A stretch of 64,000 nucleotides of DNA from an uncultured Thermoplasmatales archaeon (GTDB lineage: Archaea > Thermoplasmatota > E2 > DHVEG-1). Where the stretch lies: positions 20,687-84,686 of the forward strand of contig CAZUBH010000003.1 in the NCBI GenBank assembly GCA_964618505.1, in the 5' to 3' direction. Shown in pieces: positions 7,406 through 53,045 of the stretch. A program made the translations under genes and the position numbers. How positions within the stretch are numbered: the first letter of the stretch is position 1; each line of letters begins with the position of its first letter. The notes beneath the pieces were generated by a model, which searched no databases, was not told where the DNA came from, and was given only the letters and a program-made list of their open reading frames with translations.

Positions 7406-7519
7406 TTAGATTTCCCCAGAGTACAATTAATTTTAGGATTTATAAAGTTTTAGTAGAATATATTTATCTAACCTTAAATAACAAAGTTATTATATTCGAT
7501 TCTTTATCACGCGGCCCCA

Positions 7520-8245
7520 ATGGACCAAACCTGCGAATACTATTGTTACAAAAATAAAAGAAACACCTTAAAATATGATTTAGACAAAATTGAAAGAGTA
7601 GAAATTGTTTTTTTTGATATGGATGGTGTACTAACAGATTGTATAAGTTCTTGGAAATATGTTCATGATTATTTTAATACCTCAAACCATCGCTCTGTAG
7701 ACAAATATTTGAAAGGAGAAATAGACGATTTAGAATTCATAAAAAAAGATGTTTCTTTATGGAAAGAAAACGGAAAATTTACAAGCTATGAAAAGTTAAG
7801 CAAAATACTTTATGAAATACCTGTTATGAAAGGTGCAAAAGACCTTTTTTCTTTTTTAAAGAAAAATAAAATTAAAACAGCAATTGTGAGTGCTGGAATT
7901 GATATACTTGCAAAAAAAGTAGCAAAACATTTAGATATTGATTTTGTTTTTTCAAATGGCTTTGAGTTTGATGATAAGGGGATTTTAACTGGAGAAGGAG
8001 TCTTAAATGTCGAGCTCAGTTATAAGGATAAAAATATTGCTTATCTTGCAAATTCTTTAGACATAGAGCAAAAGAATTGTATTTCTGTGGGAAATTCTTG
8101 TTTTGATATACCAATGTTTGAAGCAAGTGGAATAGGAATAGCATTTAATCCTGAAGACGAATGCGTTAAAAAGGCAGCAGATATAATAATTGAAGAAAAA
8201 GATTTGGAAAAACTCATTTCTGCAATTGAAAAATTTGTTAAATAA
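7520..8245 (+). CDS. HAD-superfamily phosphatase (phosphoserine phosphatase-like)
   Basis: Motif I FFDMDGVL (DxDG) and C-terminal GNSCFDIPMFEASGIGIAFNP, which is SerB-like (GDGxND...AG.GIAF). The true start may lie nearer the DxDG motif. Confidence 0.7.
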   Translation: MDQTCEYYCYKNKRNTLKYDLDKIERVEIVFFDMDGVLTDCISSWKYVHDYFNTSNHRSVDKYLKGEIDDLEFIKKDVSLWKENGKFTSYEKLSKILYEIPVMKGAKDLFSFLKKNKIKTAIVSAGIDILAKKVAKHLDIDFVFSNGFEFDDKGILTGEGVLNVELSYKDKNIAYLANSLDIEQKNCISVGNSCFDIPMFEASGIGIAFNPEDECVKKAADIIIEEKDLEKLISAIEKFVK

Positions 8246-31733: not shown

Positions 31734-31937
31734 TAGAACTAAAAAAAATTATTTTGATTATCATCCTAAAAAATGGACACATAAGAAATGAAATACTAAA
31801 AGATAAAAGTCTAAGTGAGAAGGCAGGTATAACAATCGAAGGCGATAATAAATGGCTTTCACTTATGAAAACTGCGATAAAACATAAGAACGCTAAAACA
31901 GAAGGGGTTTAGGATGCACCCCACTAAATTTTACACA

Positions 31938-32411
31938 CTAAATTTGCCATACCGATATTTTACAGTACCTTAACAGTACATCCGAACGCAAAAATCTACC
32001 AAAGAAATCATCAATCTTTGATTTTTTCTCCTTAGAAGAAGAACCATAACCACGTTTTGATTTGGGGTTTATCCTACGACTACGAGGTTTATTTTTACCA
32101 AAGAACTGTTTTTTCTCACTTTTTGATATGTCTGTATTAAAAACTTGACATGCCTTTGAGAGTTCATGGTAATTAAGAATCCTTGATGGATCATGTTGCA
32201 TCATCTCTTTTAATGCAAGCTTGTTTTTATCTTCAAGAAAATAAATAGATCTATTCTTGTATTGAGCTCGTTTTATAGAAGGAAATGTCTTCTGAAGAAA
32301 ACGAAGACGATTACCATTCTTACCCGTATAAACATATCCATCTTGGATAAGTTGTTTAAGAAGTTCAAGATTTTTACCATGAATATATGGTTTAGAAATT
32401 TTTCTTGACAT
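31938..32411 (-). CDS. Hypothetical basic protein (Lys/Arg-rich C-terminal half)
   Basis: 157 aa; no recognisable motif; its promoter and first 10 codons are duplicated at 37516-37560. Confidence 0.45.
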   Translation of the reverse strand: MSRKISKPYIHGKNLELLKQLIQDGYVYTGKNGNRLRFLQKTFPSIKRAQYKNRSIYFLEDKNKLALKEMMQHDPSRILNYHELSKACQVFNTDISKSEKKQFFGKNKPRSRRINPKSKRGYGSSSKEKKSKIDDFFGRFLRSDVLLRYCKISVWQI

Positions 32412-32428
32412 TATTTGATAGGTAAAAA
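32384..32428. repeat. Direct repeat copy A (~45 bp; partner at 37516-37560, 3 mismatches)
   Basis: tatatggtttagaaatttttcttgacattatttgataggtaaaaa versus tatatggttttgaaatttttcttgccattatttgaaaggtaaaaa; same orientation, 5.13 kb apart. Confidence 0.6.
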
Positions 32429-32463
32429 TATGATATAAAAAATCTGTGGTCAGGATTGTATTT

Positions 32464-32967
32464 TTATAAGAGTATAAACATTAAACCCATTATTATAAAT
32501 AAAATTCCACCTATTTTATTAATTAATTTCTTATTAATTCTTTTTGAAATAATTTTTCCAAAAAATATTGCAATTAATGAAAGTAATGTTAATGCAGTCA
32601 TTGCTCCAACAAAAACGAATATTCCATTATATTGAGTGGCAAAAATTGCAGAAGCAATCTGTGTTTTATCACCCCATTCAGTAAGCATTATTAAGAGAAA
32701 CGAGGCTATAAAGGGATTTCTTTGTTTCGTCTCTTTCTCTTCTTCACCATCTTTACTAATTAACATTAATATACCAACTATTAGGAAAACTATTGCTGAA
32801 ATTATTTTTAAAAAATTAAGTGGTATTATTGTTGTTATCCAAGTTCCAGCAAGAATTGCTACTCCATCTACTATTGCAAATGCAAGTATTGCCCCAATCA
32901 AAAGTTGTAAATGTTTTTTTGTTTTTGAAGACAAAAGTAATAATGAAATTTGTGTTTTATCTCCCAA
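32464..32967 (-). CDS. UPF0016 (GDT1/TMEM165) family putative cation:proton antiporter
   Basis: Two E-x-G-D-K-T motifs: MGDKTQIS and EWGDKTQIA; 167 aa, 6 TM. Confidence 0.75.
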   Translation of the reverse strand: MGDKTQISLLLLSSKTKKHLQLLIGAILAFAIVDGVAILAGTWITTIIPLNFLKIISAIVFLIVGILMLISKDGEEEKETKQRNPFIASFLLIMLTEWGDKTQIASAIFATQYNGIFVFVGAMTALTLLSLIAIFFGKIISKRINKKLINKIGGILFIIMGLMFILL

Positions 32968-33142
32968 TTCTGCAGCTGCAATAGTAATTAATGGAATTAT
33001 TAAATCTTCAATGATTTTATATCACCACTCAATATCTTTTATAAATATTAATGAGTCAGTAAAAAAACTATTGTTTTTATTAAAAATATGAGATTTGAAC
33101 TCATTTTTTCTGGTAAAATAATAAGTTATTCACTTGTAAAGA

Positions 33143-34498
33143 CTACCAGAGATTAATGCCCCAAAACCTGATAGCCATTATTATTCCAATAGCAATAATT
33201 ATTATTCCAAATATCCTCTGCATCCATTTACCAGCTGTTACATATTTATTCCCAAGTTTACCACGAGCACCACTTGTAATGGCACATAATGGTATTATTG
33301 GTATTCCATGGCCAAGACCAAATACAAACAGTAGTAGTCCACCCATAATAATTGATACTTTTTGAGATAAGGTTAGAATAAATACTGGCATCATCAAACT
33401 CATTGCGCAAGGCGCCCATCCTATCGAGAATAGTATTCCTAAGAAGAATGCTCCAAGATATATTGATTTTTTACTTAGTTTTAAAAAAATATTTTTTCCT
33501 TTCTCCGTTACTTGTAAATTATTATTACTTTTATGTTTAATTTTTATCATTTCTTTTATTGGTTTAAAAACGTTAATGCCAAGTATTATGAGAATTATTC
33601 CTGAAATTAGGTAAAACATGGTTGATATTTCTAAAAATATTCCTATCGAGGTTAGTATTAATCCAAATATGAAAAATACAAATGCCATTCCAAGTGTAAA
33701 TACAACTCCTATCCATAAACCTTGAATTGAGTATTTTTTCATATTTTCTTTTTCATCTTTTTTCTGCAGAGAACCAACATATGAAATCATAGCAATAAGA
33801 AGTGCAACTGAACAAGGAGATAATGCAGTTAAAATTCCAAGGGCAAAAATTCCGATAAACGTTATACCTTCGTTGTATTCTCCACCTTTAAACTCAGTCC
33901 ATTCACCTGTTTTTATCTGTTGAATATCTTGGTTTAATGATTCAGCTGTTTGAATGCCATCGATTTTTCCTTTACCAAGAGTATAAATGTTATAAACGCC
34001 GACAATGCTCTGATTAGTATCAATTAAAATAATTGTTGGATTTGAAAAAGCACCGTTATAAGTCCAATACTCTTGATACAGGCTGACATATTGAAATGGT
34101 TCATAATCTTCAACCCAATTCCAGCTTATATTTATCCCATAAGTATTTTCTGCGATACTTTTACCTGTGGTTGAATAAGGATTTTTACGTATATTTAAAG
34201 TAATGATTTTAACATCTTCATTTGTCTTTGAAAGTTTTTCTAATTCCTGAAGTTGGTCTATCATTTCCTCCTCGCATTCGATGCAAAGAGGAGTTTCTAA
34301 GCCCGTGATATGAATAAGAGTAACAGCACCCTTGTAATCACTTAATGAAAACTCTACACTGTTTTCATCAACTGCTGTAAAGTCAGGTGCAGGTTTAATA
34401 TCAAGTTGACCTGTATTAAATAATGATGGGAAAAAAGCAAGAACTAATAAAAAAACAATGAAAACACCGATGACAGCAGCTAATATTTTTTTCATCAT
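33143..34498 (-). CDS. Thioredoxin-like (TlpA/ResA-type) domain fused to CcdA/DsbD-type transmembrane thiol-disulfide transporter
   Basis: N-terminal anchor, CxxC as PLCIECEEE, then TM domain with the two CcdA cysteines (LSPCSVALL and GWAPCAMSL). Confidence 0.7.
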   Translation of the reverse strand: MMKKILAAVIGVFIVFLLVLAFFPSLFNTGQLDIKPAPDFTAVDENSVEFSLSDYKGAVTLIHITGLETPLCIECEEEMIDQLQELEKLSKTNEDVKIITLNIRKNPYSTTGKSIAENTYGINISWNWVEDYEPFQYVSLYQEYWTYNGAFSNPTIILIDTNQSIVGVYNIYTLGKGKIDGIQTAESLNQDIQQIKTGEWTEFKGGEYNEGITFIGIFALGILTALSPCSVALLIAMISYVGSLQKKDEKENMKKYSIQGLWIGVVFTLGMAFVFFIFGLILTSIGIFLEISTMFYLISGIILIILGINVFKPIKEMIKIKHKSNNNLQVTEKGKNIFLKLSKKSIYLGAFFLGILFSIGWAPCAMSLMMPVFILTLSQKVSIIMGGLLLFVFGLGHGIPIIPLCAITSGARGKLGNKYVTAGKWMQRIFGIIIIAIGIIMAIRFWGINLW

Positions 34499-34506
34499 TT
34501 ATCACT

Positions 34507-35130
34507 TCAAGTATTTATGTTATGATAATAAATCGCATCTTTAATCCAAGTTTCCATCACAGAATCCTCAACATCAAGCTCCCAACTATGCCAACCAATC
34601 TTAATTTCACCATCATCTTCTACATATGTAAAAACACCTGTGAGAGCAATATAACCTGGCTCTCCATTAGGATCATAATAATAAGCCTCACTTGACATTT
34701 GTTGAATATTCTGTGGAGCATTATATACAGCATCTATATCATGAAACTTTACATAATCACTATATTTCTCTGCAAGAGAAATAACAAGGTCTCCTTGTTC
34801 TTTACAACCAAGACACCCTGTTCTATGAACTACAAATAAAACAGGATTATCATCTATATACTCTGTAACCCAAGAATAATGTTGAATAGTTTGTCCATAA
34901 TAATCACTACCTTCTGGAAATTCTATCCAAAAATCATCCTCGTCTGTTCCAAGGCTATGAACAGGCGTATAGTTTTCTAACCAATTTGAATCATTTGAAC
35001 CATTATCAGAATTATTTTCTGTATTGTTATCTGAATTATTGCTGGTGCAACCACTTAGAAACAATATAAGAAAAACGCTGAATAAAATCAATATCGATAT
35101 TTTACTTTTCATAATTATTCTCCGTTTCAT
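34507..35130 (-). CDS. Lipoprotein with CxxC (thioredoxin-like?)
   Basis: Lipobox LSGCTSN; HRTGCLGCKEQ CxxC. Confidence 0.4.
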   Translation of the reverse strand: MKRRIIMKSKISILILFSVFLILFLSGCTSNNSDNNTENNSDNGSNDSNWLENYTPVHSLGTDEDDFWIEFPEGSDYYGQTIQHYSWVTEYIDDNPVLFVVHRTGCLGCKEQGDLVISLAEKYSDYVKFHDIDAVYNAPQNIQQMSSEAYYYDPNGEPGYIALTGVFTYVEDDGEIKIGWHSWELDVEDSVMETWIKDAIYYHNINT

Positions 35131-35518
35131 CCAAATTTAAGGTTTTATAAACAGCCTTTCGTATTAATTCCTCAGGGATTTCTTCATATGTCTTGTCATT
35201 ATATTGTATTGTTCTACAGTAAGTTTCATTTCCAGTTAAACAGGTGCAAGATGAGCAATAATTCTCTGAAACTTTTGCTCCAGAAAGAATGCTTTCAATA
35301 GTCTTGCCATTAATGAGTATAATATTTGACTGCTGGATTTCTTTCTCTGATAATTTTGTCTCAATGAACTTTATTTGAATCCCTTTTGTTTTCAGTTCTT
35401 TCTTTAAATCCGAGATTACTTGATTTAGAGATTTTCCTGTTTTTGAACATCTTAAGCAGGTGCCTTTATCTAAATCAAGATGTCTCCATTCAATATTTAG
35501 CATCTTCATATATACCAC
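35102..35518 (-). CDS. Cys-rich small protein (DUF2703-like?)
   Basis: GTCLRCSKTG and YCSSCTCLTGNETYC cysteine clusters; 138 aa. Confidence 0.35.
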   Translation of the reverse strand: MVYMKMLNIEWRHLDLDKGTCLRCSKTGKSLNQVISDLKKELKTKGIQIKFIETKLSEKEIQQSNIILINGKTIESILSGAKVSENYCSSCTCLTGNETYCRTIQYNDKTYEEIPEELIRKAVYKTLNLDETENNYEK

Positions 35519-35838
35519 TATTCAGGACAACATTTAACATTACTTTTCATCAACTCTTTATAATCAGAGAGAACATTATGCACCCAACAATCATCATTAC
35601 CTGCACTTTCACGAAATACAAGTGCCATAATATATGCAAGCTCTTTGAGTGTCGCACCTGCTTCAAGAGCACCTTTGAAATGTTTACGAACACAAGGAGC
35701 ACTGCGGCCTTTTATCGCAATTGCAAAGCAAATAAACTGATAAGTTTTTTCATCAATCAAAAGTTTCTGTTTATACAATTCATCAATTTTATCAAGTTCT
35801 TTTGCAAATTCTGGAAACCATTCCTCAAGTATTCTCAT
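35518..35838 (-). CDS. Carboxymuconolactone decarboxylase / AhpD-like family protein
   Basis: 106 aa; APCVRKH (CxxxH) core motif of the AhpD-like fold. Confidence 0.6.
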   Translation of the reverse strand: MRILEEWFPEFAKELDKIDELYKQKLLIDEKTYQFICFAIAIKGRSAPCVRKHFKGALEAGATLKELAYIMALVFRESAGNDDCWVHNVLSDYKELMKSNVKCCPE

Positions 35839-35853
35839 AAATTTATCATCTCC

Positions 35854-36084
35854 TTATTTCAACAATTTTTTAATCTCATCAGGACTTGGGACATGACCAA
35901 CGATTTTTACCTCACCGTCTACAACTACTGCGGGTGTCATTATTACACCACGATTAACAATCTCCTGAAGATCCTCAATTTTTACAACTTCAACGTCTTT
36001 ACCAAGTTTGTCAACAACCTGCTTAACAATTTTCTCAGTTGCCTTGCATTTCGGACAACCTGTGCCTAAAATCTCAATTTTCAT
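35854..36084 (-). CDS. Small thioredoxin-family protein (redox-active disulfide protein 2 type)
   Basis: 76 aa; GTGCPKCKAT CxxC at the N-terminus of a Trx fold. Confidence 0.75.
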   Translation of the reverse strand: MKIEILGTGCPKCKATEKIVKQVVDKLGKDVEVVKIEDLQEIVNRGVIMTPAVVVDGEVKIVGHVPSPDEIKKLLK

Positions 36085-36090
36085 TTTTTA

Positions 36091-37206
36091 CTAACCTCCT
36101 ATCATACCATAAATAAAACCAACAATTGTAGCAACAATTATCACCAAAGCAAAATATACAAATGCTTTTTTCTTACCCATAACCTTTGTAATAACAATCA
36201 TATTGGGAAGGCTCAACGAAGGCCCTGCAAGCAACAATGCAAGAGCAGGACCACCACCCATCAAACCAACATTATAGCCAAATAAATCACCAACTATAGC
36301 AACCTCTAAAAGAGTTGGCATATACAAGATAGCACCAATAACTGATGCAAAGAAACATGAAAAAATATCATTACCACCAATATAAGGAGCAACAGCAACT
36401 CCAACAGCATTAGCAGGATCTGCACCAGGTATAAAATATGCAGCAACACCACCAATAATACCAACGATAAAAACACCAATAAGCAGGATAGGAAATATTT
36501 TTTTTGTAAGATTCCAAGTTTCTCTACCCCACTCTTTAACCTCACTACGAGTATAATAAAAAATAAGAAGACCCGAAACCAACAGTGTTAACATATAAAC
36601 AATAGCAAGCTTTGGAACCCAAGGAATATAATTACTACTCGCAGCCCCAATAACAAGAATAAGAACAAGAGAAACAAAAAACAAAAGCGAAATCCAAAGA
36701 GGACGCTTACCGTCTTCTTCGCCGGTTTGACCAGCAAACATAGTATTATTTTCATTCTTTTTCTCTGTTTCTTCTTTTCTAAAGATAAACGCCATTAACA
36801 ATCCAATAACGACAGCCATAAGAACAGCAGAAATTGCTCTTGCAAGACCAATATCATAACCCAGAACCTGAGCGGTAAGAACAATTGCAAGAACATTAAT
36901 TGCAGGGCCTGAGAAAAGAAAAGCAGATGCTGGACCAATACCTGCACCACGTTTATAAATACCAGTAAACAGTGGAAGAACCGTGCAGCTACATACCGCA
37001 AGAATAGCACCAGAAACAGAAGCAACAGAATAAGAAATATATTTCTTTGTATGAGCGCCGAAATATTTCAAAATACCTTGTTTAGAAACAAAAACAGCAA
37101 TAGCACCTGCTATAAAAAAAGCAGGAACAAGACAAGTAAGAACATGTGCAGAGAGATAATCCATCAATGCTTCAATACCTGCTATAAAAATATCAATAGG
37201 TGTCAT
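36091..37206 (-). CDS. DUF318-type permease (commonly ArsR- and thioredoxin-linked)
   Basis: 371 aa polytopic; conserved gene neighbourhood ArsR-permease-small Trx. Confidence 0.65.
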   Translation of the reverse strand: MTPIDIFIAGIEALMDYLSAHVLTCLVPAFFIAGAIAVFVSKQGILKYFGAHTKKYISYSVASVSGAILAVCSCTVLPLFTGIYKRGAGIGPASAFLFSGPAINVLAIVLTAQVLGYDIGLARAISAVLMAVVIGLLMAFIFRKEETEKKNENNTMFAGQTGEEDGKRPLWISLLFFVSLVLILVIGAASSNYIPWVPKLAIVYMLTLLVSGLLIFYYTRSEVKEWGRETWNLTKKIFPILLIGVFIVGIIGGVAAYFIPGADPANAVGVAVAPYIGGNDIFSCFFASVIGAILYMPTLLEVAIVGDLFGYNVGLMGGGPALALLLAGPSLSLPNMIVITKVMGKKKAFVYFALVIIVATIVGFIYGMIGG

Positions 37207-37210
37207 AACT

Positions 37211-37468
37211 TCACTTCATTTTTTTAACTTGTTTAATTATCTTGAAAATATCATTATTAGATGCTTTTATCATGATTTTAGTTCCATCTTTGCGTTCATC
37301 AATAATCCCTGCATGTTTCATAACTTTCAGATGTTGAGAAACACAGGGTTGAGATTTTTTTGTATAGGGAATGATTTCACAAATGCATCTTTCGCCTTTT
37401 TCAATGCATTCTAAAATTTTTAGTCGAGTTGGATCGGCAAGTGCTTTGAAAACATTAACTTCATCCAT
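37211..37468 (-). CDS. ArsR/SmtB-family metalloregulator
   Basis: 85 aa; LADPTRLKILECIEKGERCICEI...VSQHLKVMKHAGII. Confidence 0.85.
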   Translation of the reverse strand: MDEVNVFKALADPTRLKILECIEKGERCICEIIPYTKKSQPCVSQHLKVMKHAGIIDERKDGTKIMIKASNNDIFKIIKQVKKMK

Positions 37469-37515
37469 ATTTAAATATAAGTAAATTCGAATATTTAAAT
37501 ATTATCATATTTACG

Positions 37516-37560
37516 TATATGGTTTTGAAATTTTTCTTGCCATTATTTGAAAGGTAAAAA
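37516..37560. repeat. Direct repeat copy B (~45 bp; partner at 32384-32428); carries a truncated copy (ATG + 10 codons, MARKISKPYT*) of the start of gene 31938..32411
   Basis: See copy A; on the minus strand it encodes MARKISKPYT* versus MSRKISKPYIHGK... at the intact gene. Confidence 0.6.
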
Positions 37561-37615
37561 AGTAGTATAAATAATTGATTAAGATTTTATATTGAAATCT
37601 ATTTAAGGTTTTACA

Positions 37616-39382
37616 ATGGGGTATAAGATTAATTATGATAAAGCTGAAGATGCTTATGATTTTATTAAGCAGGAATTGATTAAAAAAGGATACCATGTAA
37701 ATGGGTATAAAGAAATATCCTATGGAATACAATTTTATATTAAACTTGATAATGTAACTGAACTTCTTCGCATTTATTCCAGTAAAAAAGGAACTACTTT
37801 TGATGATTCACAAATTAAAAATATAAAAATTAAAAGTGATGTTTTATCAATATTTAATCTGACAGAAGATGATGAAACTTCCACAGAAAAAGAAGAGGTT
37901 TCATATGGAACTGTTTATTCTTTATGCGTTGGGATAAATAATTTCGTTGATAATAATTATGGTTCTTTAACTTATGCTGATAAAGATGCTGAAGAGCTTC
38001 ATCAATTACTTGTTGAAAAGTTTGGTGTGGGTGACGGTACTATAAAATTAGTCGATCAGGAGGCAAATTATAGAGATATTGTTAGCTCTATCGAAAATAT
38101 CAAAAAATTAGCAAAATTAGAAGATATAGTAATAATATTTTTTGCTACACATGGTGAATTTTTAAGACATAATGGATCTACTGATTTTTATTTAGTGTCT
38201 CATGATAGCGATCATAACAATCTGATACCAACTTCATTAGCTATGAGAACTCTTAAAAGTTTAGTATCAGAAATAAAATCTGAAAGAAAAGTGATTTTTT
38301 TAGACACATGTCATAGTGGTGGAATAACAAGACGAGACGGCAGAGATGTATCTTCAGATGTTAAAGAAGAGATTTTTAAAAATTTCTCCTCCGAAGATTT
38401 TGTGATTATTACATCTTGCCTTGAAAATGAATCATCACATGAGTCAAAAAAGTTTGAACATGGAGTTTTTACATATTATCTCTTGAGTGGTTTAACTGGT
38501 GCTGTTGAAATTAAAAATGATACAATTGATCTCTACACGTTATTTGTTTATATTAATAAATATGTAAAAGAATATGTGAAATCGGAACATAAGCGTAGTC
38601 AAACTCCAAGATTTTTCAGTAATCTAAAAGGACCTTTTGTTTTACCAAAATTAAAAGAATCAATTAAAAAAAGTTCAAATCTTAAACAATATATCAAGCC
38701 TGAACTTGATAATAAATCAGTTAAAGTAAAATTTGAAAATATTAATTGTATCGGTATTGATGAATCAGGTAAAGGAGATTATTTTGGACCATTAGTTATA
38801 GCAGGTGTATATGTTGATACTCAAGAAAAAGTCGAAAAATTAAAATCAATGGGTGTTAAAGATAGTAAAAAACTTAGTGATACAAGAATTAATGCATTAG
38901 CAAAAAGAATTATTCAAGATTTTGATAATGAAATAATAGTAATCTCTCCTTCCAAATATAATACTCTTTATGATAAGATGGCAAATATGAATGAAATACT
39001 TGCTTGGGGTCATTCTCAATCTTTAGAACAAATATTAATGAGAAATGAAGAATGTGAAATAGCAATTTCAGATCAATTTGCATGGAAAGAATTGTTGTTA
39101 AGTAAATTAAAAGAAAAAGGAAAACAAATCCAAGTAATACAAAGACCTAAAGCAGAGGAAAATCTTGTTGTTGCAGCTGCTTCAATTCTTGCAAGATCAA
39201 AGTATATTAACTATCTGGATAGGATGGGAAAAGATTTTAAACATAATTTTCCGAGAGGAGCAGGTCCTTTAGTTATTGATAGTGGAGTTAATTTTAAAAT
39301 AAAAGGTCTTGATTTAAATCAAGTAGCAAAAACAAGTTTTGGAACAACAAAAAAAATTAATGAATTATTTAATTCTAAGTAA
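37616..39382 (+). CDS. Three-part fusion protein: RNase HIII-like N-terminal domain + caspase-like (peptidase C14) His/Cys domain + RNase HIII catalytic domain
   Basis: The N-terminal ~90 aa (YIKLDNVTELLRIYSSKKGTTFDD) is reminiscent of the RNase HIII TBP-like N-domain. aa ~95-330 carry the caspase His (IIFFATHGEF) and Cys (VIFLDTCHSGG) dyad. aa ~375-588 start with GIDESGKGDYFGPLVIAGVYV, the RNase HIII-specific GKGDYFGP version of the RNase H2-family motif, and the rest aligns with the H2-fold catalytic core. Confidence 0.7.
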   Translation: MGYKINYDKAEDAYDFIKQELIKKGYHVNGYKEISYGIQFYIKLDNVTELLRIYSSKKGTTFDDSQIKNIKIKSDVLSIFNLTEDDETSTEKEEVSYGTVYSLCVGINNFVDNNYGSLTYADKDAEELHQLLVEKFGVGDGTIKLVDQEANYRDIVSSIENIKKLAKLEDIVIIFFATHGEFLRHNGSTDFYLVSHDSDHNNLIPTSLAMRTLKSLVSEIKSERKVIFLDTCHSGGITRRDGRDVSSDVKEEIFKNFSSEDFVIITSCLENESSHESKKFEHGVFTYYLLSGLTGAVEIKNDTIDLYTLFVYINKYVKEYVKSEHKRSQTPRFFSNLKGPFVLPKLKESIKKSSNLKQYIKPELDNKSVKVKFENINCIGIDESGKGDYFGPLVIAGVYVDTQEKVEKLKSMGVKDSKKLSDTRINALAKRIIQDFDNEIIVISPSKYNTLYDKMANMNEILAWGHSQSLEQILMRNEECEIAISDQFAWKELLLSKLKEKGKQIQVIQRPKAEENLVVAAASILARSKYINYLDRMGKDFKHNFPRGAGPLVIDSGVNFKIKGLDLNQVAKTSFGTTKKINELFNSK

Positions 39383-41062: not shown

Positions 41063-44000
41063 TTGGAATTATTTGAAGGACAAATTATATCGGCATCTTT
41101 TTTAAATGATAAAGCAGAAGTGAAAAAGTTTGAGCGTCGTGCTGGTTATTATGTTCTTGAAGTAATTCTTTGTGGTAACCGGACTTTTAAAACTTTAAGG
41201 ATTTCTGAGTCTCAATTAAATCAGATTAAGGTTGTAACTTCTGATGTGTTGTCTTTTTCTAAGAATAGTGAAGATTTTTTCTTTTGGGTTGAGGCTAATA
41301 TTCTTAGATTGGCTTATCAGTTTGATCCTTTGCTTGCTGTTAATGTTTCTCAAGTAGATCCTCTTCCACATCAAATTGAAGCAGTGTATTCATATATATT
41401 GCGTGATCCAAAGGTCAGATTTTTAATTGCTGATGATGCTGGTGCGGGTAAGACTATTATGGCTGGTCTTGCGATAAAGGAACTGCAATATAGGAATATG
41501 GCTAAGAATGTTCTTGTGGTTGCTCCGGGTCATCTTAAGTATCAGTGGCAGCGTGAGATGAAAACTAAGTTTGGTACTAATTTTACTCTTGTTAATCGTG
41601 CGTTGATGGATTCTCATTGGGGTGAAAATGTTTGGGAGAATCTTAATTTTTGTGTAACATCAATTGATTTTCTTAAACAGGATGATATTATTGATAAGTT
41701 AAATGCTTCTTCTTGGGATTTTGTGGTTGTTGATGAAGCTCATAAGATGTCTGCATATGGTTATTCTAGTAAGAAAGGTGTTAAAATTGATAAAACGGGT
41801 AGGTATAAGGTTGGTGAGATTCTTTCTAAAAGAGCTACTCATATGTTGTTTTTAACGGCGACTCCGCATCGTGGTGATGAAGAGAATTTCCGTTTGTTTC
41901 TTGATTTGCTTCGTCCAGGTTTTTTTTCTAAAACTGATTTGTTAAAGGAGTCTATTCAAAATGATGAAAATCCTCTTTTTATTCGTCGTCTTAAGGAAGA
42001 CATGAAGGATTTTAAGGGTAACCAGCTTTTTACTCCTCGCCATGTGAGTACTGTGAGTTTTCCATTAACTGCTGAAGAGGATCATTTGTATCGTGAGGTT
42101 ACTAATTATGTTAAGGAACATTTTGATAGGGCTAAAGAAAATCGTTCTATTACTTTTGCTATGATGATTCTTCAGAGACGTTTGACTTCAAGTACGTATG
42201 CGATTCTTCGTTCTTTAGAGAGGCGGAAAGCTCGTCTTGAAGAAATTTTAGAATTGCCTGATAAAATTAATCAGGATAAAGAGTATGAAAAGGTAAAAAA
42301 TATTTCTCAGGAAGATCTTGATGATATGGGTGAGGAGGATCGCTGGGCGATTGAAGAGAAACTTATGAATTTAACTCTTGCTTCTAATATTTCTGAGGTT
42401 GAAGCTGAGATTGAAAAAGTTGGTGAGCTTATTGAGCTTGCTAAAACGGTTCATTCTAAAGAAATTGAGAGTAAGCTTGTGAAACTTCGTGATGAGATTC
42501 TTTCTACAATTGGGGATAATAAACTTTTAATTTTTACTGAGTTTAGAGATACTGTTGATTATTTAGTTGAAAAACTTCAATCCTGGGGTTATAAGGTTAA
42601 TACTATTCATGGTAGTATGAATATGGATGCTCGTATTGAAGCTGAGCATCAGTTTAAAAATGATACGCAGATTTTGGTTGCTACTGAGGCTGCTGGTGAG
42701 GGTATTAATCTTCAGTTTTGTTCTCTTATGGTTAATTATGATATCCCTTGGAATCCTAATCGGCTTGAGCAGAGAATGGGTCGTATTCATCGTTATGGTC
42801 AGAAAAAAGAGGTTTTTATTTATAATATGGTAAGTAAAAATACTCGTGAAGGGCAGATTCTTGAGCGTTTGTTTCAGAAGCTTAACAGTATGCGTGATGC
42901 ACTTGGTTCTGATCGTGTTTTTGATGTTATCGGTGAAATAATTCCTGGTGAGAGTCTTGAGGATATTTTAAAAGATGCAATTACGGGTCAGCGTCGTATT
43001 GAGGAGATTTATCAGATTGTTGATGAGATTGATGCTGCTGAAGTTGAAAAGAAGATGGAAAATATTTTTATGACTAGTCTTGCAACTCGTCATATTGATT
43101 ACTCGGGTATTATGAATAGTATTCATGAGGCTGATGAGAATCGTTTGATGCCTGAGTATATTGAGGATTTTTTCCTTCGTGCGTTTTCTCGTTTTGGTGG
43201 TAAGTTTGAAAAACGAACTGATACGTATAGTATTAAATCTGTTCCTTATGAGCTTAGAAAATTCAATAAGGATTATGATTTTAAATCAAGTTATGGAAAA
43301 GTTGAGAAATCGTATTCAAAGATTACTTTTGATAAACAAAAAGCAAAGGATAATCCAGAATATGAATATGTTGCCCCAGGTCATCCTTTGCTTGAAGCAG
43401 TGAATCAAAAAGCAATTGAGGACCGTGGTCATGATGATGCTGTCGCTGTTTTTACTGATGAGACAAACTCTCTTGAGGGTGTTCTTTGGTTTATTGAAGG
43501 AGAGCTTTTAGATGGACAGGGGCAGGTTGCTGGTAAAAGAGTGTTTAGTGTTTTTCAAAATATAAAAGGAGAGTTTGAAAAGGTTAATCCTTCTATTATT
43601 TGGGATCTTGCCCCAGCTGATAATGTTGTTTTAACGGAGACTCAGAGGCGTATGTTTGGTAAGAAAAATGATGTTGAAGAATATGCGATTACTGAAATCA
43701 TGTTTCCATATAAAGAAGAAATTGAGAAACAACGGAAGAAGGAATCTGATATAAAAGAAAAATATGGTTTGCGTTCACTTGATTATTTGCTTCAGGAATC
43801 CAATGATAAACTTCTTCATTACCAGGAGCAGCTTGAAGAAGGAAAAGATATGAATATTGCTATTATTAATGAGGAGAAACGAAAAGAGGATTTTGAGGAG
43901 AAACATGGTGCTCTTGTAGAAGAGATAAAACTTGAGAAAGAAATAACTGTATCTGAACCAAAAATTCTTGGTTCTGCAGCTGTATTGCCACTTAGCAGAG

Positions 44001-44437
44001 CTAAACCTGAGGTTTCAAAAGAGCTTAGTGGTGGTGGAATGACTCGTGATGATGAAATCGAAGCAGTAGGGATGGAAGAAGCAAAGAAGTTTGAAAAGGA
44101 AAATGGTTGGAGTCCACAGGATGTTCATAAAGAAAATCTTGGTTTTGATATAAGATCAACAAGATATCGGGAAGATGGAACTTTTGAGGATATTCGTTAT
44201 ATTGAGGTAAAAGCTCGTGCGCAGGATGGTTCAATTAGAGTTTCTGCTAATGAATGGAAAAAGGCTAAACGTTTTCAGGATAAGTTTTGGTTGTATGTTG
44301 TAACTTTTGCAGGTACTGATAATCCTAAACTAGAGCGTTATAAAAATCCTGAAAAAACCTTCACAATTGATGAAGATATTTATGCAACTGGTTATATTAT
44401 CCCAAAGGAAAAAATCTTGAAGGCGGTGAGTGAGTGA
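41063..44437 (+). CDS. SNF2-family helicase fused to C-terminal DUF3883-type PD-(D/E)xK nuclease-like domain
   Basis: Motifs I LIADDAGAGKT, II VVDEAHKM, III LFLTATPHRG, VI QRMGRIHRYGQ. C-terminal GFDIRSTRYREDGTFEDIRYIEVKARAQDGSIRVSANEW...LYVVTF is the DUF3883 pattern. Apparent TTG start with GAGGTGA Shine-Dalgarno 8 nt upstream. Confidence 0.85.
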   Translation: MELFEGQIISASFLNDKAEVKKFERRAGYYVLEVILCGNRTFKTLRISESQLNQIKVVTSDVLSFSKNSEDFFFWVEANILRLAYQFDPLLAVNVSQVDPLPHQIEAVYSYILRDPKVRFLIADDAGAGKTIMAGLAIKELQYRNMAKNVLVVAPGHLKYQWQREMKTKFGTNFTLVNRALMDSHWGENVWENLNFCVTSIDFLKQDDIIDKLNASSWDFVVVDEAHKMSAYGYSSKKGVKIDKTGRYKVGEILSKRATHMLFLTATPHRGDEENFRLFLDLLRPGFFSKTDLLKESIQNDENPLFIRRLKEDMKDFKGNQLFTPRHVSTVSFPLTAEEDHLYREVTNYVKEHFDRAKENRSITFAMMILQRRLTSSTYAILRSLERRKARLEEILELPDKINQDKEYEKVKNISQEDLDDMGEEDRWAIEEKLMNLTLASNISEVEAEIEKVGELIELAKTVHSKEIESKLVKLRDEILSTIGDNKLLIFTEFRDTVDYLVEKLQSWGYKVNTIHGSMNMDARIEAEHQFKNDTQILVATEAAGEGINLQFCSLMVNYDIPWNPNRLEQRMGRIHRYGQKKEVFIYNMVSKNTREGQILERLFQKLNSMRDALGSDRVFDVIGEIIPGESLEDILKDAITGQRRIEEIYQIVDEIDAAEVEKKMENIFMTSLATRHIDYSGIMNSIHEADENRLMPEYIEDFFLRAFSRFGGKFEKRTDTYSIKSVPYELRKFNKDYDFKSSYGKVEKSYSKITFDKQKAKDNPEYEYVAPGHPLLEAVNQKAIEDRGHDDAVAVFTDETNSLEGVLWFIEGELLDGQGQVAGKRVFSVFQNIKGEFEKVNPSIIWDLAPADNVVLTETQRRMFGKKNDVEEYAITEIMFPYKEEIEKQRKKESDIKEKYGLRSLDYLLQESNDKLLHYQEQLEEGKDMNIAIINEEKRKEDFEEKHGALVEEIKLEKEITVSEPKILGSAAVLPLSRAKPEVSKELSGGGMTRDDEIEAVGMEEAKKFEKENGWSPQDVHKENLGFDIRSTRYREDGTFEDIRYIEVKARAQDGSIRVSANEWKKAKRFQDKFWLYVVTFAGTDNPKLERYKNPEKTFTIDEDIYATGYIIPKEKILKAVSE

Positions 44438-47172: not shown

Positions 47173-47175
47173 AAT

Positions 47176-49845: not shown

Positions 49846-49847
49846 TA

Positions 49848-50975
49848 GTGGATAATACTGTTTCTCAACAAGAGATCAATTCCCTCATCTATAGAATGGA
49901 AAAACTCGAAAAGAAAAAGAATACAAAACGAAGAACAAGTGTGAAAGTAAACGGAAAAGAAATCCTTTTAAGAAAGGCGTATAAAGAACCAAAATTCCAT
50001 CATAAAACAGTACTAACCCATGATACTTGGAGATATGTTGATATTTTCCTGAAAGGGATGAGAAATAAAGAAGGAGATAAAGCAAGAAAATATTGGGAAC
50101 AAGCAAGGCAATTTTATATCGCTTCAAAACAATTAAAAGAATATGCTTCTCCTTTAACATTGTATTATTCTTATTTAAATGCTACAAAGGCGCTATTGTA
50201 TTCAAAGAAACATAGATTTGTCGACACATACCATGGGATTTCTAGTCTCGATAACGATGATTCGATCTCGATTTATAGTGAAAGAATACGATTATGTAAA
50301 GAAGGTGTCTTACCCGGGTTATGTGAGTATTATGGTGAAGATTCTTGCGAAAATATAGAATATTCTTTAAAATGGGTTCTTTACAATATACCTTATATAC
50401 ATCGTGCTTTCTCATTGACCTATTCGGGATCAAGTAATCTTTTCATACCAATTATGAATCCGATGTTTGTATATGATTCAAAGACTAAGGAAATATGGTT
50501 AGAATCTGAATTGGAACAAAAATACTCAAACAAAACCACTTTAAATATGCTAAAGAATTTTGAAATCGATGACTATTACAACAAGAACAATTATGTAATT
50601 AAGTCAAAAGAAAAACTAAAAGTAAATACATCATACTGTCTACAAAAAAAAGATATTGGAAAGTTTTTAACATTCTATCAGTGCATTAGAAAAAATGTTG
50701 ATTATATACATGGACCTAAAGATCTTTGGTACATTAAGAGGAGCCATATCTCAAATTCAATAAATCGTACTACAATGGTGTTAACACTTGCAGCTATGCA
50801 TAAGCTTAGTAGTTTAGCTAGATATCATCCCGAACGATTAGAAAAATATCTTTCAAAAAATACTCATTGGTTACTCTCAGAATTTATCCATATATCTCCA
50901 GATCAATTTATCGATCAGATTGCTTGTGAGATTACAGGATGTAATTTACAAATACCTGGCATTAAAATTGAATGA
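49848..50975 (+). CDS. Hypothetical protein, fourth gene of the helicase-MTase-ATPase operon
   Basis: 375 aa; GTG start 2 nt after the DUF499 stop; no motif recognised by eye (not PglZ-sized). Confidence 0.45.
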   Translation: MDNTVSQQEINSLIYRMEKLEKKKNTKRRTSVKVNGKEILLRKAYKEPKFHHKTVLTHDTWRYVDIFLKGMRNKEGDKARKYWEQARQFYIASKQLKEYASPLTLYYSYLNATKALLYSKKHRFVDTYHGISSLDNDDSISIYSERIRLCKEGVLPGLCEYYGEDSCENIEYSLKWVLYNIPYIHRAFSLTYSGSSNLFIPIMNPMFVYDSKTKEIWLESELEQKYSNKTTLNMLKNFEIDDYYNKNNYVIKSKEKLKVNTSYCLQKKDIGKFLTFYQCIRKNVDYIHGPKDLWYIKRSHISNSINRTTMVLTLAAMHKLSSLARYHPERLEKYLSKNTHWLLSEFIHISPDQFIDQIACEITGCNLQIPGIKIE

Positions 50976-52900: not shown

Positions 52901-53045
52901 TATTTTTAGTAAAAATTACCTTATTTTTCCTCTCAACAGATGAGAAATCTTGTTTTTCTCCATATCAAAACCTATTTATACACAGTTTCTTTCCTGAATT
53001 TCTCTTGTTTTTGATCACTTTCGGAACTACTGCTTAAGACGAAAT

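What the first reader, a model, noticed from the sequence alone, without database searches (positions are those of the whole stretch)
32384..37560. 5.1-kb ArsR/thiol-redox cassette bracketed by ~45-bp direct repeats, one of which duplicates the promoter and first 10 codons of a flanking gene
Seen: tatatggtttagaaatttttcttgacattatttgataggtaaaaa (32384-32428) and tatatggttttgaaatttttcttgccattatttgaaaggtaaaaa (37516-37560) are direct repeats with 3 mismatches. Copy A overlaps the ATG and upstream region of gene 31938..32411 (MSRKISKPYIHGK...). Copy B encodes only MARKISKPYT* and then stops. This is the footprint expected from site-specific integration (attL/attR with a duplicated target spanning a gene start) or a duplication-mediated insertion. 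All eight enclosed genes are co-oriented: arsR, DUF318 permease, small Trx, AhpD-like, Cys-rich protein, CxxC lipoprotein, Trx-CcdA fusion and GDT1. No integrase remains inside.
Basis: seen in the sequence. Interest (0 to 1): 0.6.

Follow-up and report, generated by a model that had tools for sequence, protein, structure and literature searches.

The report
Cassette insertion duplicating a gene start
Two gene cassettes (an ArsR-controlled thiol-redox operon and a GDT1 transporter gene) sit inside the start of a conserved archaeal gene whose promoter and first ten codons were duplicated when they arrived. It is a real but old, integrase-less insertion scar, notable because relatives carry the same cassettes bracketed by tRNA-end repeats at different tRNA genes.

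Summary
The repeat is real and longer than reported: 60 nt (32384-32443 and 37516-37575), 52/60 identical, found nowhere else in the window. On the minus strand each copy is an archaeal TATA box, 28 nt, an ATG and nine codons of a conserved 157-aa Thermoplasmatota gene ("p157"). Copy A starts the intact gene. Copy B is a 10-codon stub.

The enclosed DNA is two units, not one: the arsR...Redoxin/DsbD operon and a separate GDT1 gene. A tRNA-T-arm-like repeat unit (33089-33138) separates them. In relatives the operon has the same conserved promoter/operator. It lies at different sites, often bracketed by direct repeats of the 3' end of tRNA-Met, tRNA-Leu or tRNA-Thr, in co-oriented arrays with no integrase nearby. 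Five p157 orthologues lack the cassette.

Best reading (confidence 0.5): an old recombinational insertion into the p157 start by DNA carrying its own copy of that start, with the geometry of dusA-type islands. No integrase, exact empty site or att-type insert ends were found, and the copies differ by 13%. A relative (L018) with a different p157 remnant keeps a duplication-plus-deletion origin alive. Interest is moderate.

The parts
31938..32411 (-). p157: intact 157-aa gene of a conserved, uncharacterised Thermoplasmatota family. It probably has a winged-helix DNA-binding domain followed by a basic tail.
   Evidence: ORF. 125 homologues at 50-92% identity, named Thermoplasmat* where a name is given. 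No Pfam or PHROG hit; longer homologues add N-terminal HTH domains. In the AF2 model residues 10-75 have pLDDT about 90 with an H-E-H-E-E-H order, but PDB fold matches to wHTH repressors are only weak.
31905..31965 (-). 'Z': conserved roughly 60-nt 3' end and flank of p157 (...AAATTTAGTGTGTAAAATTTAGTGGGGTGCAT).
   Evidence: It aligns with the 3' flanks of p157 in L009 and L097, and with the sequence immediately upstream of the arsR leader in L018, including a 19/19 identical run.
32384..32443 (-). Repeat copy A: functional core promoter (TATA about 32434-32441), ATG (32409-32411) and codons 1-10 of p157.
   Evidence: The promoter and N-terminus are conserved in orthologues L005, L006 and L009.
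32464..32967 (-). GDT1-family transporter gene. In relative L017 it is a single-gene cassette bounded by att-like units.
   Evidence: Pfam GDT1, E = 1e-37. L017 3059-3732 matches window 33139-32462 at 84%. L017 GDT1 (3230-3727) lies between att-like units at 3059-3110 and 3784-3834.
33089..33138 (-). att-like repeat unit (ACAAGTGAA...TTTTACCAGAAAAAATGAGTTCAAATCTC). It has a tRNA T-arm-like core and marks the distal end of the arsR operon cassette.
   Evidence: It is the only match in the window to the unit pattern and to the nhmmer profile (E = 1e-9). It is homologous to units after DsbD in L017, L015, L020 and L011. Homology to L017 switches cassettes exactly here.
33143..37468 (-). arsR operon: ArsR 37211-37468, ArsP_1 permease 36091-37206, thioredoxin 35854-36084, AhpD/CMD-like 35518-35838, DUF2703 35102-35518, CxxC lipoprotein 34507-35130, Redoxin-DsbD/CcdA fusion 33143-34498.
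   Evidence: Pfam. The same gene order occurs in about 80 related loci, with AhpD and DUF2703 optional. It is mosaic: arsR/ArsP and lipoprotein/DsbD are closest to L011, while Trx/AhpD/DUF2703 are closest to L029.
37469..37512 (-). Native arsR promoter/operator leader. It includes the palindrome AATATTTAAATATT (37490-37503) at -35..-22 from the ATG. This is inferred to be the TATA box for a leaderless mRNA and probably the ArsR operator.
   Evidence: The 44 nt upstream of arsR are conserved in all relatives examined, including ones whose DsbD protein is only 65-70% identical. Nucleotide homology of the cassette to L011, L013, L018 and L029 starts at 37511. The promoter and operator roles are inference.
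37516..37575 (-). Repeat copy B: stranded p157 core promoter plus ATG plus a 10-codon stub (mini-ORF 37511-37543, MARKISKPYT*). It points into the arsR leader.
   Evidence: It keeps the TATA box, the spacing and the ATG, and keeps ATGGCA (Ala2) as the close orthologues do. No other truncated copy exists in any related locus.
37616..39382 (+). Caspase (Peptidase_C14)-RNase HII/HIII fusion gene, divergent from copy B (72 nt between the two ATGs). It is the first gene of a variable defence island.
   Evidence: Pfam, PADLOC caspase. Distribution is patchy and the nearest homologue (75%) has other neighbours. p157 orthologues usually have a divergent, variable gene 47-80 nt upstream.

Best explanation
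This is an old insertion scar. A DNA segment carrying two cassettes recombined into the very start of the resident p157 gene. The cassettes are the ArsR-regulated thiol-redox operon, with its own promoter/operator and its att-like end unit, and a GDT1 gene.

Inferred steps:
- The incoming DNA carried, at its GDT1-side end, its own copy of the p157 core promoter and first codons. It probably came from a donor in which the cassettes already lay just upstream of p157, as they do in relative L018.
- Recombination across that homologous patch placed the cassettes after codon 10. This could have been Campbell-type integration of a circle or homology-anchored integration of a linear piece. The enzyme could have been the host recombination system or an integrase acting in trans.
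- The patch copy next to the gene body (copy A) now drives p157.
- The original start (copy B) was stranded next to its old divergent neighbour, the caspase-RNase H gene. It now points into the arsR leader.
- The operon still uses its own conserved TATA/palindrome. Copy B may add read-through transcription and a 10-codon leaderless peptide, or it may be inert.

Shown: the repeat, the two-unit content, the conserved arsR promoter, the different positions and bracketing repeats of these cassettes in relatives, and the absence of the cassette at p157 in five orthologous loci. The inferred steps above are not shown.
For: 1. Repeat anatomy: the repeat is a 60-nt, gap-free duplicate of exactly the core promoter plus 10 codons.
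2. Outer edge: the repeat's outer edge coincides with the point where conservation among p157 orthologues begins, at the TATA box. That is expected if the two copies come from two different genomic contexts.
3. Copy B in its native setting: copy B with the divergent caspase-RNase H gene 72 nt away looks like a normal p157 start. Orthologues L006, L009 and L097 each have a different divergent gene 47-80 nt upstream.
4. Native position of p157: L009 shares the downstream flank of p157 with the window, so the intact gene is in its native position.
5. Absence in orthologues: five orthologous p157 loci lack the cassette.
6. The enclosed units are discrete and relocatable in relatives:
- The operon is bracketed by 13-23-nt direct repeats of the 3' end of tRNA-Met (L013), tRNA-Leu (L062, L067, L011), tRNA-Thr (L068, L045) and one further tRNA-3'-end-like sequence (L041).
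- Homology between loci stops at these repeats.
- L017 and the window differ by two whole modules exactly at att-like units.
- All profile hits with E below 1e-3 in related loci are co-oriented with the cassette.
7. Native promoter: the arsR leader is conserved in all relatives, and homology starts 5 nt from copy B. Copy B is therefore a junction remnant, not the operon's native promoter.
8. Age: copy A and copy B are each other's nearest relatives (8/60 mismatches, against 11-14/60 to orthologues). The event is lineage-specific but old.
9. Precedent: islands in the 5' end of dusA replace the 5' end with an island-borne copy, leaving a remnant 5' end and imperfect direct repeats (PMC4482086).
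Against: - No integrase was found in the window or beside the arrays in relatives.
- No exact empty site was found.
- No excised or cassette-free variant was found among contigs of the same population.
- The insert ends are not att-like. The 100-130 nt that normally separate the upstream att repeat from the arsR leader are missing, and GDT1 lacks its downstream unit. The event therefore did not use the recombination sites that bracket these cassettes elsewhere.
- L018 carries a p157 3'-flank remnant (Z) upstream of arsR and an intact p157 downstream. This suggests an ancestor with two whole p157 copies rather than a 60-bp patch.
- A sliding comparison of p157 with its orthologues shows no donor/recipient mosaic.
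- The interior of the insert rests on one assembly.
Confidence: 0.5

Rival explanations
1. Duplication followed by deletions. An ancestor had two complete p157 units flanking the operon: [P-p157-Z][arsR operon...][P-p157-Z]. It arose by tandem segmental duplication or by integration of a circle carrying a whole p157 gene. The redundant upstream copy then decayed differently in different lineages. The window kept the promoter plus 10 codons, and L018 kept only the 3' flank Z.
For: L018 has about 60 nt homologous to the p157 3' flank, including a 19/19 identical run, directly upstream of its arsR leader. It also has an intact p157 start 12 nt after the DsbD stop. The window and L018 share the arsR-leader variant ATGATAATA and the same left limit of cassette homology, about -47. 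p157-family genes neighbour the operon in three different arrangements: the window, L018 and L029/L030.
Against: The model needs at least two further deletions. One of them would have to end within about 5 nt of the arsR leader. The right-hand junctions differ (DsbD+12 in L018, GDT1+20 in the window), so they are independent events. The p157 of L018 is more distant (71% aa) than orthologues that lack the arrangement (86-92%). No locus with two full copies was seen.
Confidence: 0.2
2. Swap on the island side. The operon and GDT1 already lay upstream of p157. The incoming DNA was the defence-island side. A fragment from a related strain carried the caspase-RNase H gene plus the divergent p157 promoter and 10 codons of its own p157. 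It was joined illegitimately just upstream of the arsR leader while its other end recombined homologously further away. The two repeat copies would then be alleles from two lineages.
For: The region upstream of p157 is hypervariable: there are five different neighbours in five orthologues. To the right of copy B lies a defence island, comprising the caspase fusion, HmaABC and an IS. The 69-aa gene in that island is 92% identical to L006, whereas p157 is 85%. Divergence between the copies (8/60) is of the order seen between orthologues (11-14/60). The operon-p157 adjacency exists independently in L018.
Against: The copies are still closer to each other than to any orthologue. No donor arrangement with the caspase gene next to intact p157 was found. 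Nothing shows which side arrived last.
Confidence: 0.12
3. Selected promoter duplication. Whatever its origin, copy B is kept because it works as a second, p157-type promoter for the arsR operon, possibly with a short leader peptide. This would couple the operon to p157 regulation.
For: After 13% divergence copy B still has the TATA box, unchanged spacing, the ATG and an open 10-codon frame with no indels. It points into the operon 75 nt upstream of the native start. The promoter core TTTATACTACTTTTT is identical in the distant p157-like gene that sits next to arsR in L029.
Against: The operon has its own promoter/operator, conserved in all relatives examined, and none of them has such a stub. 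Sixty nucleotides are too few to test for constraint. There are no expression data.
Confidence: 0.1
4. Assembly collapse. The population has two operon copies or two strains. One is next to GDT1-p157 and the other next to the stub and the caspase gene. The assembler joined them through the conserved operon interior.
For: Logan assemblies from at least five runs stop at 33248/33232 and at 37078, and none spans the interior. The interior proteins are on record only from one NCBI contig. The interior is mosaic.
Against: One flank ends in the 3' end of DsbD and the other in arsR plus the 5' end of ArsP. These are the two ends of one operon that is contiguous in about 80 relatives. Shared 31-mers with co-occurring relatives of this conserved operon explain the breaks without a second copy (inference). 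Each junction, and so the duplicated start itself, is independently confirmed.
Confidence: 0.08

Closest known systems
dusA-specific genomic islands and prophages (integration into the 5' end of a protein-coding gene; PMC4482086)
   Same: The insert sits in the 5' end of a conserved gene. The functional 5' end next to the gene body is a second copy. The other copy is left as a remnant at the far end of the insert. The flanking direct repeats are imperfect, and promoter elements are present on both sides.
   Different: dusA islands encode a dedicated tyrosine integrase and have 21-bp semiconserved att sites; excision has been shown by PCR. Here there is no integrase, the repeat is 60 nt and includes the whole core promoter, the host is an archaeon, and excision has not been shown.
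CIMEs and tandem accretion at att sites (cis-mobilizable elements; PMC5704250, citing Pavlovic et al. 2004)
   Same: The relatives' operon and neighbouring modules keep flanking att-type repeats but have no integration genes. They sit in tandem behind a tRNA gene (L011, L017, L069).
   Different: CIMEs are described as decayed ICEs or IMEs of Firmicutes, many kilobases long. Here the modules are 0.4-4.7 kb, the same operon is bracketed by repeats of at least three different tRNAs, and no integrase-bearing partner was seen. In the window itself only one att-like unit survives, and the outer repeats are gene-start copies, not att sites.
Archaeal elements integrated in tRNA genes and 'gene capture' (for example PYG1 with 44-bp repeats; PMC9897764)
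   Same: Relatives show one complete tRNA plus a partial 3' copy at the other end of the inserted DNA.
   Different: The reported elements are about 9-23 kb of viral or plasmid DNA with integrases. Here the units are operon-sized or single-gene, carry chromosomal-type cargo and have no integrase. The window has no tRNA gene at all.
Integrons, including the archaeal integrons of PMC9668308
   Same: Relatives show co-oriented arrays of small promoter-poor cassettes separated by a recurring recombination-site-like unit.
   Different: No IntI or attI was found. The unit has no attC-like imperfect hairpin; RNAalifold finds only a 3-bp T-arm stem. It instead mimics a tRNA 3' half, and the arrays start at tRNA genes. 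I did not run an attC model.
Homology-facilitated illegitimate recombination, or Campbell-type integration through a short homologous patch (own knowledge, not checked in the library)
   Same: One homologous anchor plus one illegitimate or pre-formed junction yields an insert flanked by a duplicated anchor with no transposase or integrase footprint.
   Different: The concept comes from experiments in naturally transformable bacteria. Nothing here shows which enzyme acted.

Membership tests
Site-specifically integrated element (tyrosine-integrase type, attL/attR) | Direct repeats at both ends of the inserted DNA | tested here: met
   60-nt repeat, 52/60 identical, unique in the window.
Site-specifically integrated element (tyrosine-integrase type, attL/attR) | Integrase gene in or next to the element | tested here: not met
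   The eight enclosed genes have non-mobility families or no family. All window ORFs of 229-467 aa outside the insert that were scanned or carry precomputed Pfam annotation belong to other families. Several longer ORFs were not scanned. The rest of the 157-kb contig could not be read.
Site-specifically integrated element (tyrosine-integrase type, attL/attR) | Uninterrupted target (empty site) in relatives | tested here: inconclusive
   Five p157 orthologues lack the cassette, but each has a different upstream neighbour. The nearest homologue of the caspase fusion is not next to p157. No population variant without the insert was found.
Site-specifically integrated element (tyrosine-integrase type, attL/attR) | Excision or circular form | not testable with these tools
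   This needs reads or PCR across a restored junction.
Transposon with target-site duplication | Short target duplication (2-15 bp), terminal inverted repeats and a transposase | tested here: not met
   The repeat is 60 nt. No inverted repeat pairs the two insert ends. There is no transposase inside. The only DDE gene in the window is 14 kb away.
tRNA-anchored att-bounded cassette, as seen in relatives L011, L013, L017, L062, L067, L068 | Unit followed by an att-like repeat (arm plus T-arm-like core), co-oriented | tested here: met
   This holds for the arsR operon: unit at 33089-33138, E = 1e-9, same strand. It does not hold for GDT1, which has 20 nt to the copy A TATA and no unit.
tRNA-anchored att-bounded cassette, as seen in relatives L011, L013, L017, L062, L067, L068 | Matching repeat or intact tRNA upstream of the unit | tested here: not met
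   The window has no tRNA gene and no second att-like unit. Copy B abuts the arsR leader at -47, where relatives have 100-130 nt followed by the tRNA end.
Integron | IntI integrase, attI, and attC sites with a conserved imperfect hairpin | tested here: not met
   No integrase was found. The units show no conserved hairpin beyond a 3-bp T-arm stem. An attC covariance model was not run.
Composite transposon (IS-flanked), as in L029 | Two copies of one IS flanking the cargo | tested here: not met
   L029 has two direct copies of the 519-aa DDE gene around the p157-like gene plus operon. The window has a single copy at 51276-52835, outside the repeat-bounded segment.
ArsR/SmtB-regulated operon (function of the cargo) | ArsR-family HTH repressor gene first in the operon, with a palindromic operator at the promoter | tested here: met
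   HTH_5, E = 1e-16. The 14-nt perfect palindrome at -35..-22 is conserved in all relatives examined. Binding and the inducer could not be tested.

The most novel reading that the evidence does not exclude
The window's cassettes may belong to an undescribed, integron-like gene-cassette system of sediment Thermoplasmatota (Thermoprofundales-like). In this reading, operon-sized and single-gene cassettes without integrases sit in co-oriented arrays behind tRNA genes. About 50-nt recombination units separate them, each made of an ACAGGAGAAA arm, a small palindrome and a tRNA T-arm mimic. Cassettes are exchanged at those units and between different tRNAs (Leu, Met, Thr) by a recombinase encoded elsewhere. 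The p157 gene-start duplication in the window would then be an off-site capture of two such cassettes.
Probability: 0.3. Interest if true: 0.75.

Novelty: new variant of a known kind. Interest (0 to 1): 0.5.

Why it matters
The window gives a clean example, in an uncultured archaeon, of a conserved gene surviving an insertion into its own start because the incoming DNA brought a spare promoter and first codons. This geometry has so far been documented for integrase-bearing islands in bacterial dusA.

Following the cargo into relatives gives a more useful result. A stress-response operon that looks like ordinary chromosomal housekeeping is in fact a discrete, relocatable unit. It is bracketed by repeats of tRNA 3' ends at several different tRNAs and sits in arrays of small integrase-less modules. 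If that holds up, it offers a testable route for how sediment archaea shuffle operon-sized functions without viruses or plasmids being visible. It also offers a sequence signature, the att-like unit, for finding such cassettes in metagenomes.

Tried and rejected
- Chance or generic promoter motif: rejected. Shuffles gave 0 matches, and the sequence occurs only at p157 starts in 97 loci.
- Compositional island: rejected. The GC profile shows no discontinuity beyond normal coding and non-coding variation.
- Plasmid or virus origin: not supported. There was no megablast hit in PLSDB. p157, the DsbD fusion and the att-unit pattern are all absent from IMG/VR.
- Exact-pattern scan of metagenome contigs for the gene-start 28-mer: nothing found. 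The pattern was too strict, because L006 differs in it.
- A remnant of the p157 3' end near the thermosome gene (52955-53034): rejected. This 80-nt element is the right end of an IS4-like element, which abuts p157 in L006, L010 and L029. It is neither a tRNA nor an Rfam family.
- Copy B as the operon's native promoter: rejected, because of the conserved arsR leader.
- The att-like unit as a structured RNA: no support. RNAalifold gives 3 base pairs.
- Transposon: no terminal inverted repeats at the insert ends or at the IS.
- Donor/recipient mosaic inside p157: no signal.
- p157 as a recombinase: no support. It looks like a winged helix with only weak fold matches; the HTH_7 and TnsD hits in long homologues are generic or sub-threshold.
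- Empty site through homologues of the caspase-RNase H fusion: not found.
- Integrase beside tRNA-anchored arrays in relatives: not found. The neighbours are PFK, IDH, GTP cyclohydrolase, Fic and methyltransferase genes, among others.
- Look-ups of interior cassette proteins in independent assemblies: none on record.

Full report
**1. The observation**

The repeat runs further than reported, to 60 nt: 32384-32443 and 37516-37575. It is 52/60 identical with no gaps, and the start-to-start spacing is 5132 bp. It is the strongest two-copy direct repeat in the 64-kb window. With three mismatches allowed the 45-mer matches only these two places, and none of 100 dinucleotide shuffles produced a match.

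On the minus strand each copy is a typical archaeal leaderless-gene start: TTTATA, 28 nt from the TATA start to the ATG, then nine more codons. Copy A opens the 157-aa ORF 31938..32411, here called p157. Copy B reads MARKISKPYT and stops. The eight genes between the copies are all on the minus strand, and Pfam supports the family assignments. GC content does not set the segment apart.

**2. Is it an assembly artefact?**

Independent Logan assemblies of several sequencing runs reproduce both junctions at 100% identity. Contigs L001, L002 and L004 run from the Mrp antiporter genes through p157, copy A, GDT1 and the att-like unit into the 3' end of the DsbD-fusion gene, and stop at 33248 or 33232. 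Contigs L007, L008 and L096 run from the defence island through the caspase-RNase H gene, copy B and arsR into the 5' end of ArsP, and stop at 37078 or 37442. The duplicated gene start is therefore real.

No independent contig spans 33248-37078. The interior proteins are on record only from one NCBI contig of 157,516 nt. The operon is contiguous in about 80 relatives, and the two flanks end in its two ends, so one operon joining them is by far the simplest reading. I keep an 8% rival for assembly collapse.

**3. The flanking gene**

p157 has 125 homologues at 50-92% identity, named Thermoplasmata or Thermoplasmatales archaea where a name is given. It has no Pfam or PHROG family. Longer homologues add N-terminal HTH domains. 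An AlphaFold model is confident for residues 10-75 and looks like a winged helix, but matches to solved structures are weak (E of 0.14 or higher; ArsR/SmtB-type repressors, AspA, MecI).

Its promoter and N-terminus are conserved in orthologues. Conservation begins exactly at the TATA box, which is also the outer edge of the repeat. Five orthologous loci (L005, L006, L009, L097, L010) have five different upstream neighbours and no cassette. In three of them the neighbour is a divergent, unrelated gene 47-80 nt away.

Copy B and the caspase-RNase H gene, whose ATGs are 72 nt apart and divergent, have just that look. L009 shares the window's downstream flank, so the intact p157 is at its native position. 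The DNA to the right of copy B is a defence island. It holds the caspase-RNase H fusion, a complete HmaABC system and an IS4-like transposase gene.

**4. The cargo**

The Redoxin-DsbD fusion has hundreds of homologues at 66-93% identity. In 80 metagenomic loci and three others, the order arsR-ArsP-Trx-(AhpD)-(DUF2703)-lipoprotein-DsbD recurs.

The 44 nt before arsR, including the perfect palindrome AATATTTAAATATT at -35 to -22, are conserved in every relative examined, even ones with 65% protein identity. Nucleotide homology of the window to L011, L013, L018 and L029 starts at 37511, five nucleotides from copy B. The operon therefore has its own promoter. I infer that this is a TATA box for a leaderless mRNA overlapped by the ArsR operator. 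Copy B is a junction remnant rather than the native promoter.

The window's operon is mosaic. ArsR/ArsP (95% and 94%) and lipoprotein/DsbD (83% and 93%) are closest to L011. Trx/AhpD/DUF2703 (89%, 91% and 83%) are closest to L029, whose DsbD is only 71% identical.

**5. The cargo is a relocatable unit in relatives**

The operon lies in different genomic contexts in L011, L013, L016, L019, L022 and others, and homology between loci is confined to the operon. Where a tRNA gene lies just upstream, its last 13-19 nt are repeated 50-75 nt after the DsbD stop:
- tRNA-Met in L013;
- tRNA-Leu(CAA) in L062 and L067;
- tRNA-Thr(GGT) in L068.

L045, L041 and L011 have matching partial tRNA ends on both sides. 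These are GC-rich strings in roughly 30% GC DNA, at consistent positions. L045 and L068 are homologous exactly from repeat to repeat.

In the Leu-type loci the distal repeat is part of a unit of about 50 nt, with consensus ACAGGAGAAA-N-TTTTACCGGTAAAAC-CGAGTTCAAATCTCG. An nhmmer profile of it finds 40 hits in 24 loci. Every hit with E below 1e-3 is on the cassette strand.

L011 has four further tRNA-Leu-end copies after the tRNA-Leu gene, at about 6690, 7620, 11447 and 15440. They delimit four small modules, one of which is the operon. L017 has four units in 2.2 kb, and GDT1 is a single-gene module between two of them. L017 and L015 are 95.5% identical up to the unit core and unrelated beyond it.

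No integrase lies in or beside these arrays. The neighbours are housekeeping genes, and the modules carry Fic, methyltransferase, PBP and DUF389 genes, among others. The unit has no conserved secondary structure beyond a 3-bp T-arm stem.

**6. What the window retains of this**

Exactly one such unit is present, at 33089-33138 on the cassette strand, directly after the DsbD stop. Comparison with L017 is telling. L017 1-1717 aligns to window 34807-33090, and L017 3059-3732 aligns to window 33139-32462. The window's single unit is therefore the point where L017 carries two extra modules.

The '5.1-kb cassette' is thus two array-type cassettes, the arsR operon and GDT1. The outer ends of the segment are not att-like:
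- The 100-130 nt that relatives have between the upstream tRNA end and the arsR leader are missing.
- GDT1 is followed after 20 nt by the copy A TATA box instead of a unit.
- The window has no tRNA gene.
- No inverted repeats pair the ends of the segment.
- No integrase was found among the window's ORFs.

**7. How the duplication arose**

The structure [promoter + 10 codons] - [leader-operon-unit-GDT1] - [promoter + whole gene] is what results when DNA carrying the cassettes plus its own copy of the p157 start recombines with the resident p157 start. [quoted passage not shown]

A donor of that kind is plausible. In L018 the operon ends 12 nt before the TATA box of a p157 gene. The coincidence of the repeat's outer edge with the limit of orthologue conservation fits two copies that come from two contexts.

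The copies are each other's nearest relatives (8/60 differences, against 11-14/60 to orthologues), and each has its own derived changes. Copy B keeps ATGGCA like the close orthologues, while copy A has ATGTCA. The event is therefore lineage-specific but old, not a recent integration. I commit to this reading at 0.5. The enzyme is unknown; it could have been host homologous recombination across the patch or an integrase acting in trans.

**8. The main rival**

L018 also has, immediately upstream of its arsR leader, about 60 nt homologous to the 3' flank of p157 ('Z'), including a 19/19 run shared with the window's own p157 flank. The window and L018 share the leader variant ATGATAATA and the same left limit of cassette homology.

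This suggests an ancestor with two whole p157 units around the operon, whose upstream copy decayed to different remnants. It needs more steps, and one deletion would have to end almost exactly at the leader. The right-hand junctions of the two loci are independent. The L018 p157 is more distant than orthologues that lack the arrangement. I give this rival 0.2.

The remaining rivals are:
- a swap on the defence-island side (0.12);
- retention of copy B as a working second promoter (0.1), which concerns present function rather than origin;
- assembly collapse (0.08).

**9. Present-day working (inference)**

p157 is transcribed from copy A. The operon is transcribed from its own TATA/palindrome under ArsR autorepression. 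Copy B, if active, would start a transcript at about 37543, allow translation of a 10-residue peptide and read through the operator into arsR.

From the families present, the cargo is a membrane thiol-disulfide relay with a permease, under a metal- or redox-sensing repressor. The relay comprises the DsbD/CcdA-Redoxin fusion, a secreted CxxC lipoprotein, a small thioredoxin, AhpD-like and DUF2703 proteins.

**10. Comparison with what is known, and novelty**

Integration into tRNA genes with partial tRNA repeats is standard in archaea, but for 9-23-kb integrase-bearing elements (PMC9897764). Integrase-less units that keep their att sites and accrete in tandem are known as CIMEs in Firmicutes (PMC5704250). 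Integrons have been reported in archaea, with IntI and attC (PMC9668308).

The window's feature is a new variant of a known kind: a gene-5'-end duplication around captured cassettes, without an integrase, in an archaeon. The arrays in relatives might be more than that (novel case, probability 0.3), but they lie outside the window, and a mobilising enzyme has not been identified.

Noticed in passing
L011 5852-15461; L017 1669-3834; L069 1761-4979; L013, L062, L067, L068 around arsR: In relatives, small integrase-less modules of 0.4-4.7 kb lie in co-oriented arrays behind tRNA genes. Repeats of the tRNA 3' end separate them, or a roughly 50-nt unit (ACAGGAGAAA arm, small palindrome, T-arm-like core). 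The modules include the arsR operon, GDT1, Fic, a methyltransferase, PBP and DUF389. The same operon is bracketed by ends of tRNA-Met, tRNA-Leu or tRNA-Thr in different lineages.
   Followed up: partly
window 51276-53034: An IS4-like element: a 519-aa DDE_Tnp_1 transposase gene (51276-52835) plus a conserved right end (52955-53034) just upstream of the thermosome promoter. That right end abuts the 3' end of p157 in L006, L010 and L029. In L029 two direct copies of the IS flank a p157-like gene plus the arsR operon, like a composite transposon. No terminal inverted repeats were found.
   Followed up: partly
window 41063-50975: A complete Hma defence system: HmaA SNF2 helicase 41063-44437, HmaB DUF1156 methylase 44434-47172, HmaC DUF499 ATPase 47176-49845. 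A YaaC-like gene follows at 49848-50975.
   Followed up: yes
window 37616-39382: A 588-aa fusion of a caspase-like Peptidase_C14 domain with RNase HII/HIII. Full-length homologues are few and patchy (75% in a JGI contig, 60% in a Nanoarchaeota MAG) and sit in changing neighbourhoods. It looks like a defence-type gene. Its function was not examined.
   Followed up: partly
window 31905-31965; L018 455-527: The roughly 60-nt 3' flank of p157 ('Z', with two AAATTTAGTG-like motifs) is conserved after p157 in L009 and L097. It reappears directly upstream of the arsR leader in L018. Its role is unknown.
   Followed up: partly
window 35100-36084: The Trx-AhpD-DUF2703 stretch of the operon is closest to a distant lineage (L029: 89%, 91% and 83% aa). 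The genes on both sides are closest to L011. The operon is therefore an internal recombinant. AhpD and DUF2703 are absent from the nearest relatives.
   Followed up: partly
window 33232-33248 and 37078: Logan assemblies of at least five runs all break at these two points inside the operon. The interior proteins are absent from those assemblies. This probably reflects k-mers shared with co-occurring relatives of this conserved operon, but strain polymorphism was not excluded.
   Followed up: partly
L029 2648-3228 (also L030): A distant p157-family gene (HMM E = 2e-30, about 32% identity) lies divergently next to arsR. Its core promoter TTTATACTACTTTTT is identical to that of copy B. p157-family genes thus neighbour this operon in three different arrangements, which hints at a functional link.
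   Followed up: partly
window 1-64000: ARAGORN and Rfam found no tRNA gene and no Rfam family in 64 kb, although the window carries housekeeping genes (SRP54, an aminoacyl-tRNA synthetase, thermosome, Hsp70/GrpE).
   Followed up: no
window 6002-9517: A Peptidase_C25 (gingipain-like) gene (6002-7405) and a serpin gene (8246-9517) lie close together, separated by a HAD hydrolase gene.
   Followed up: no
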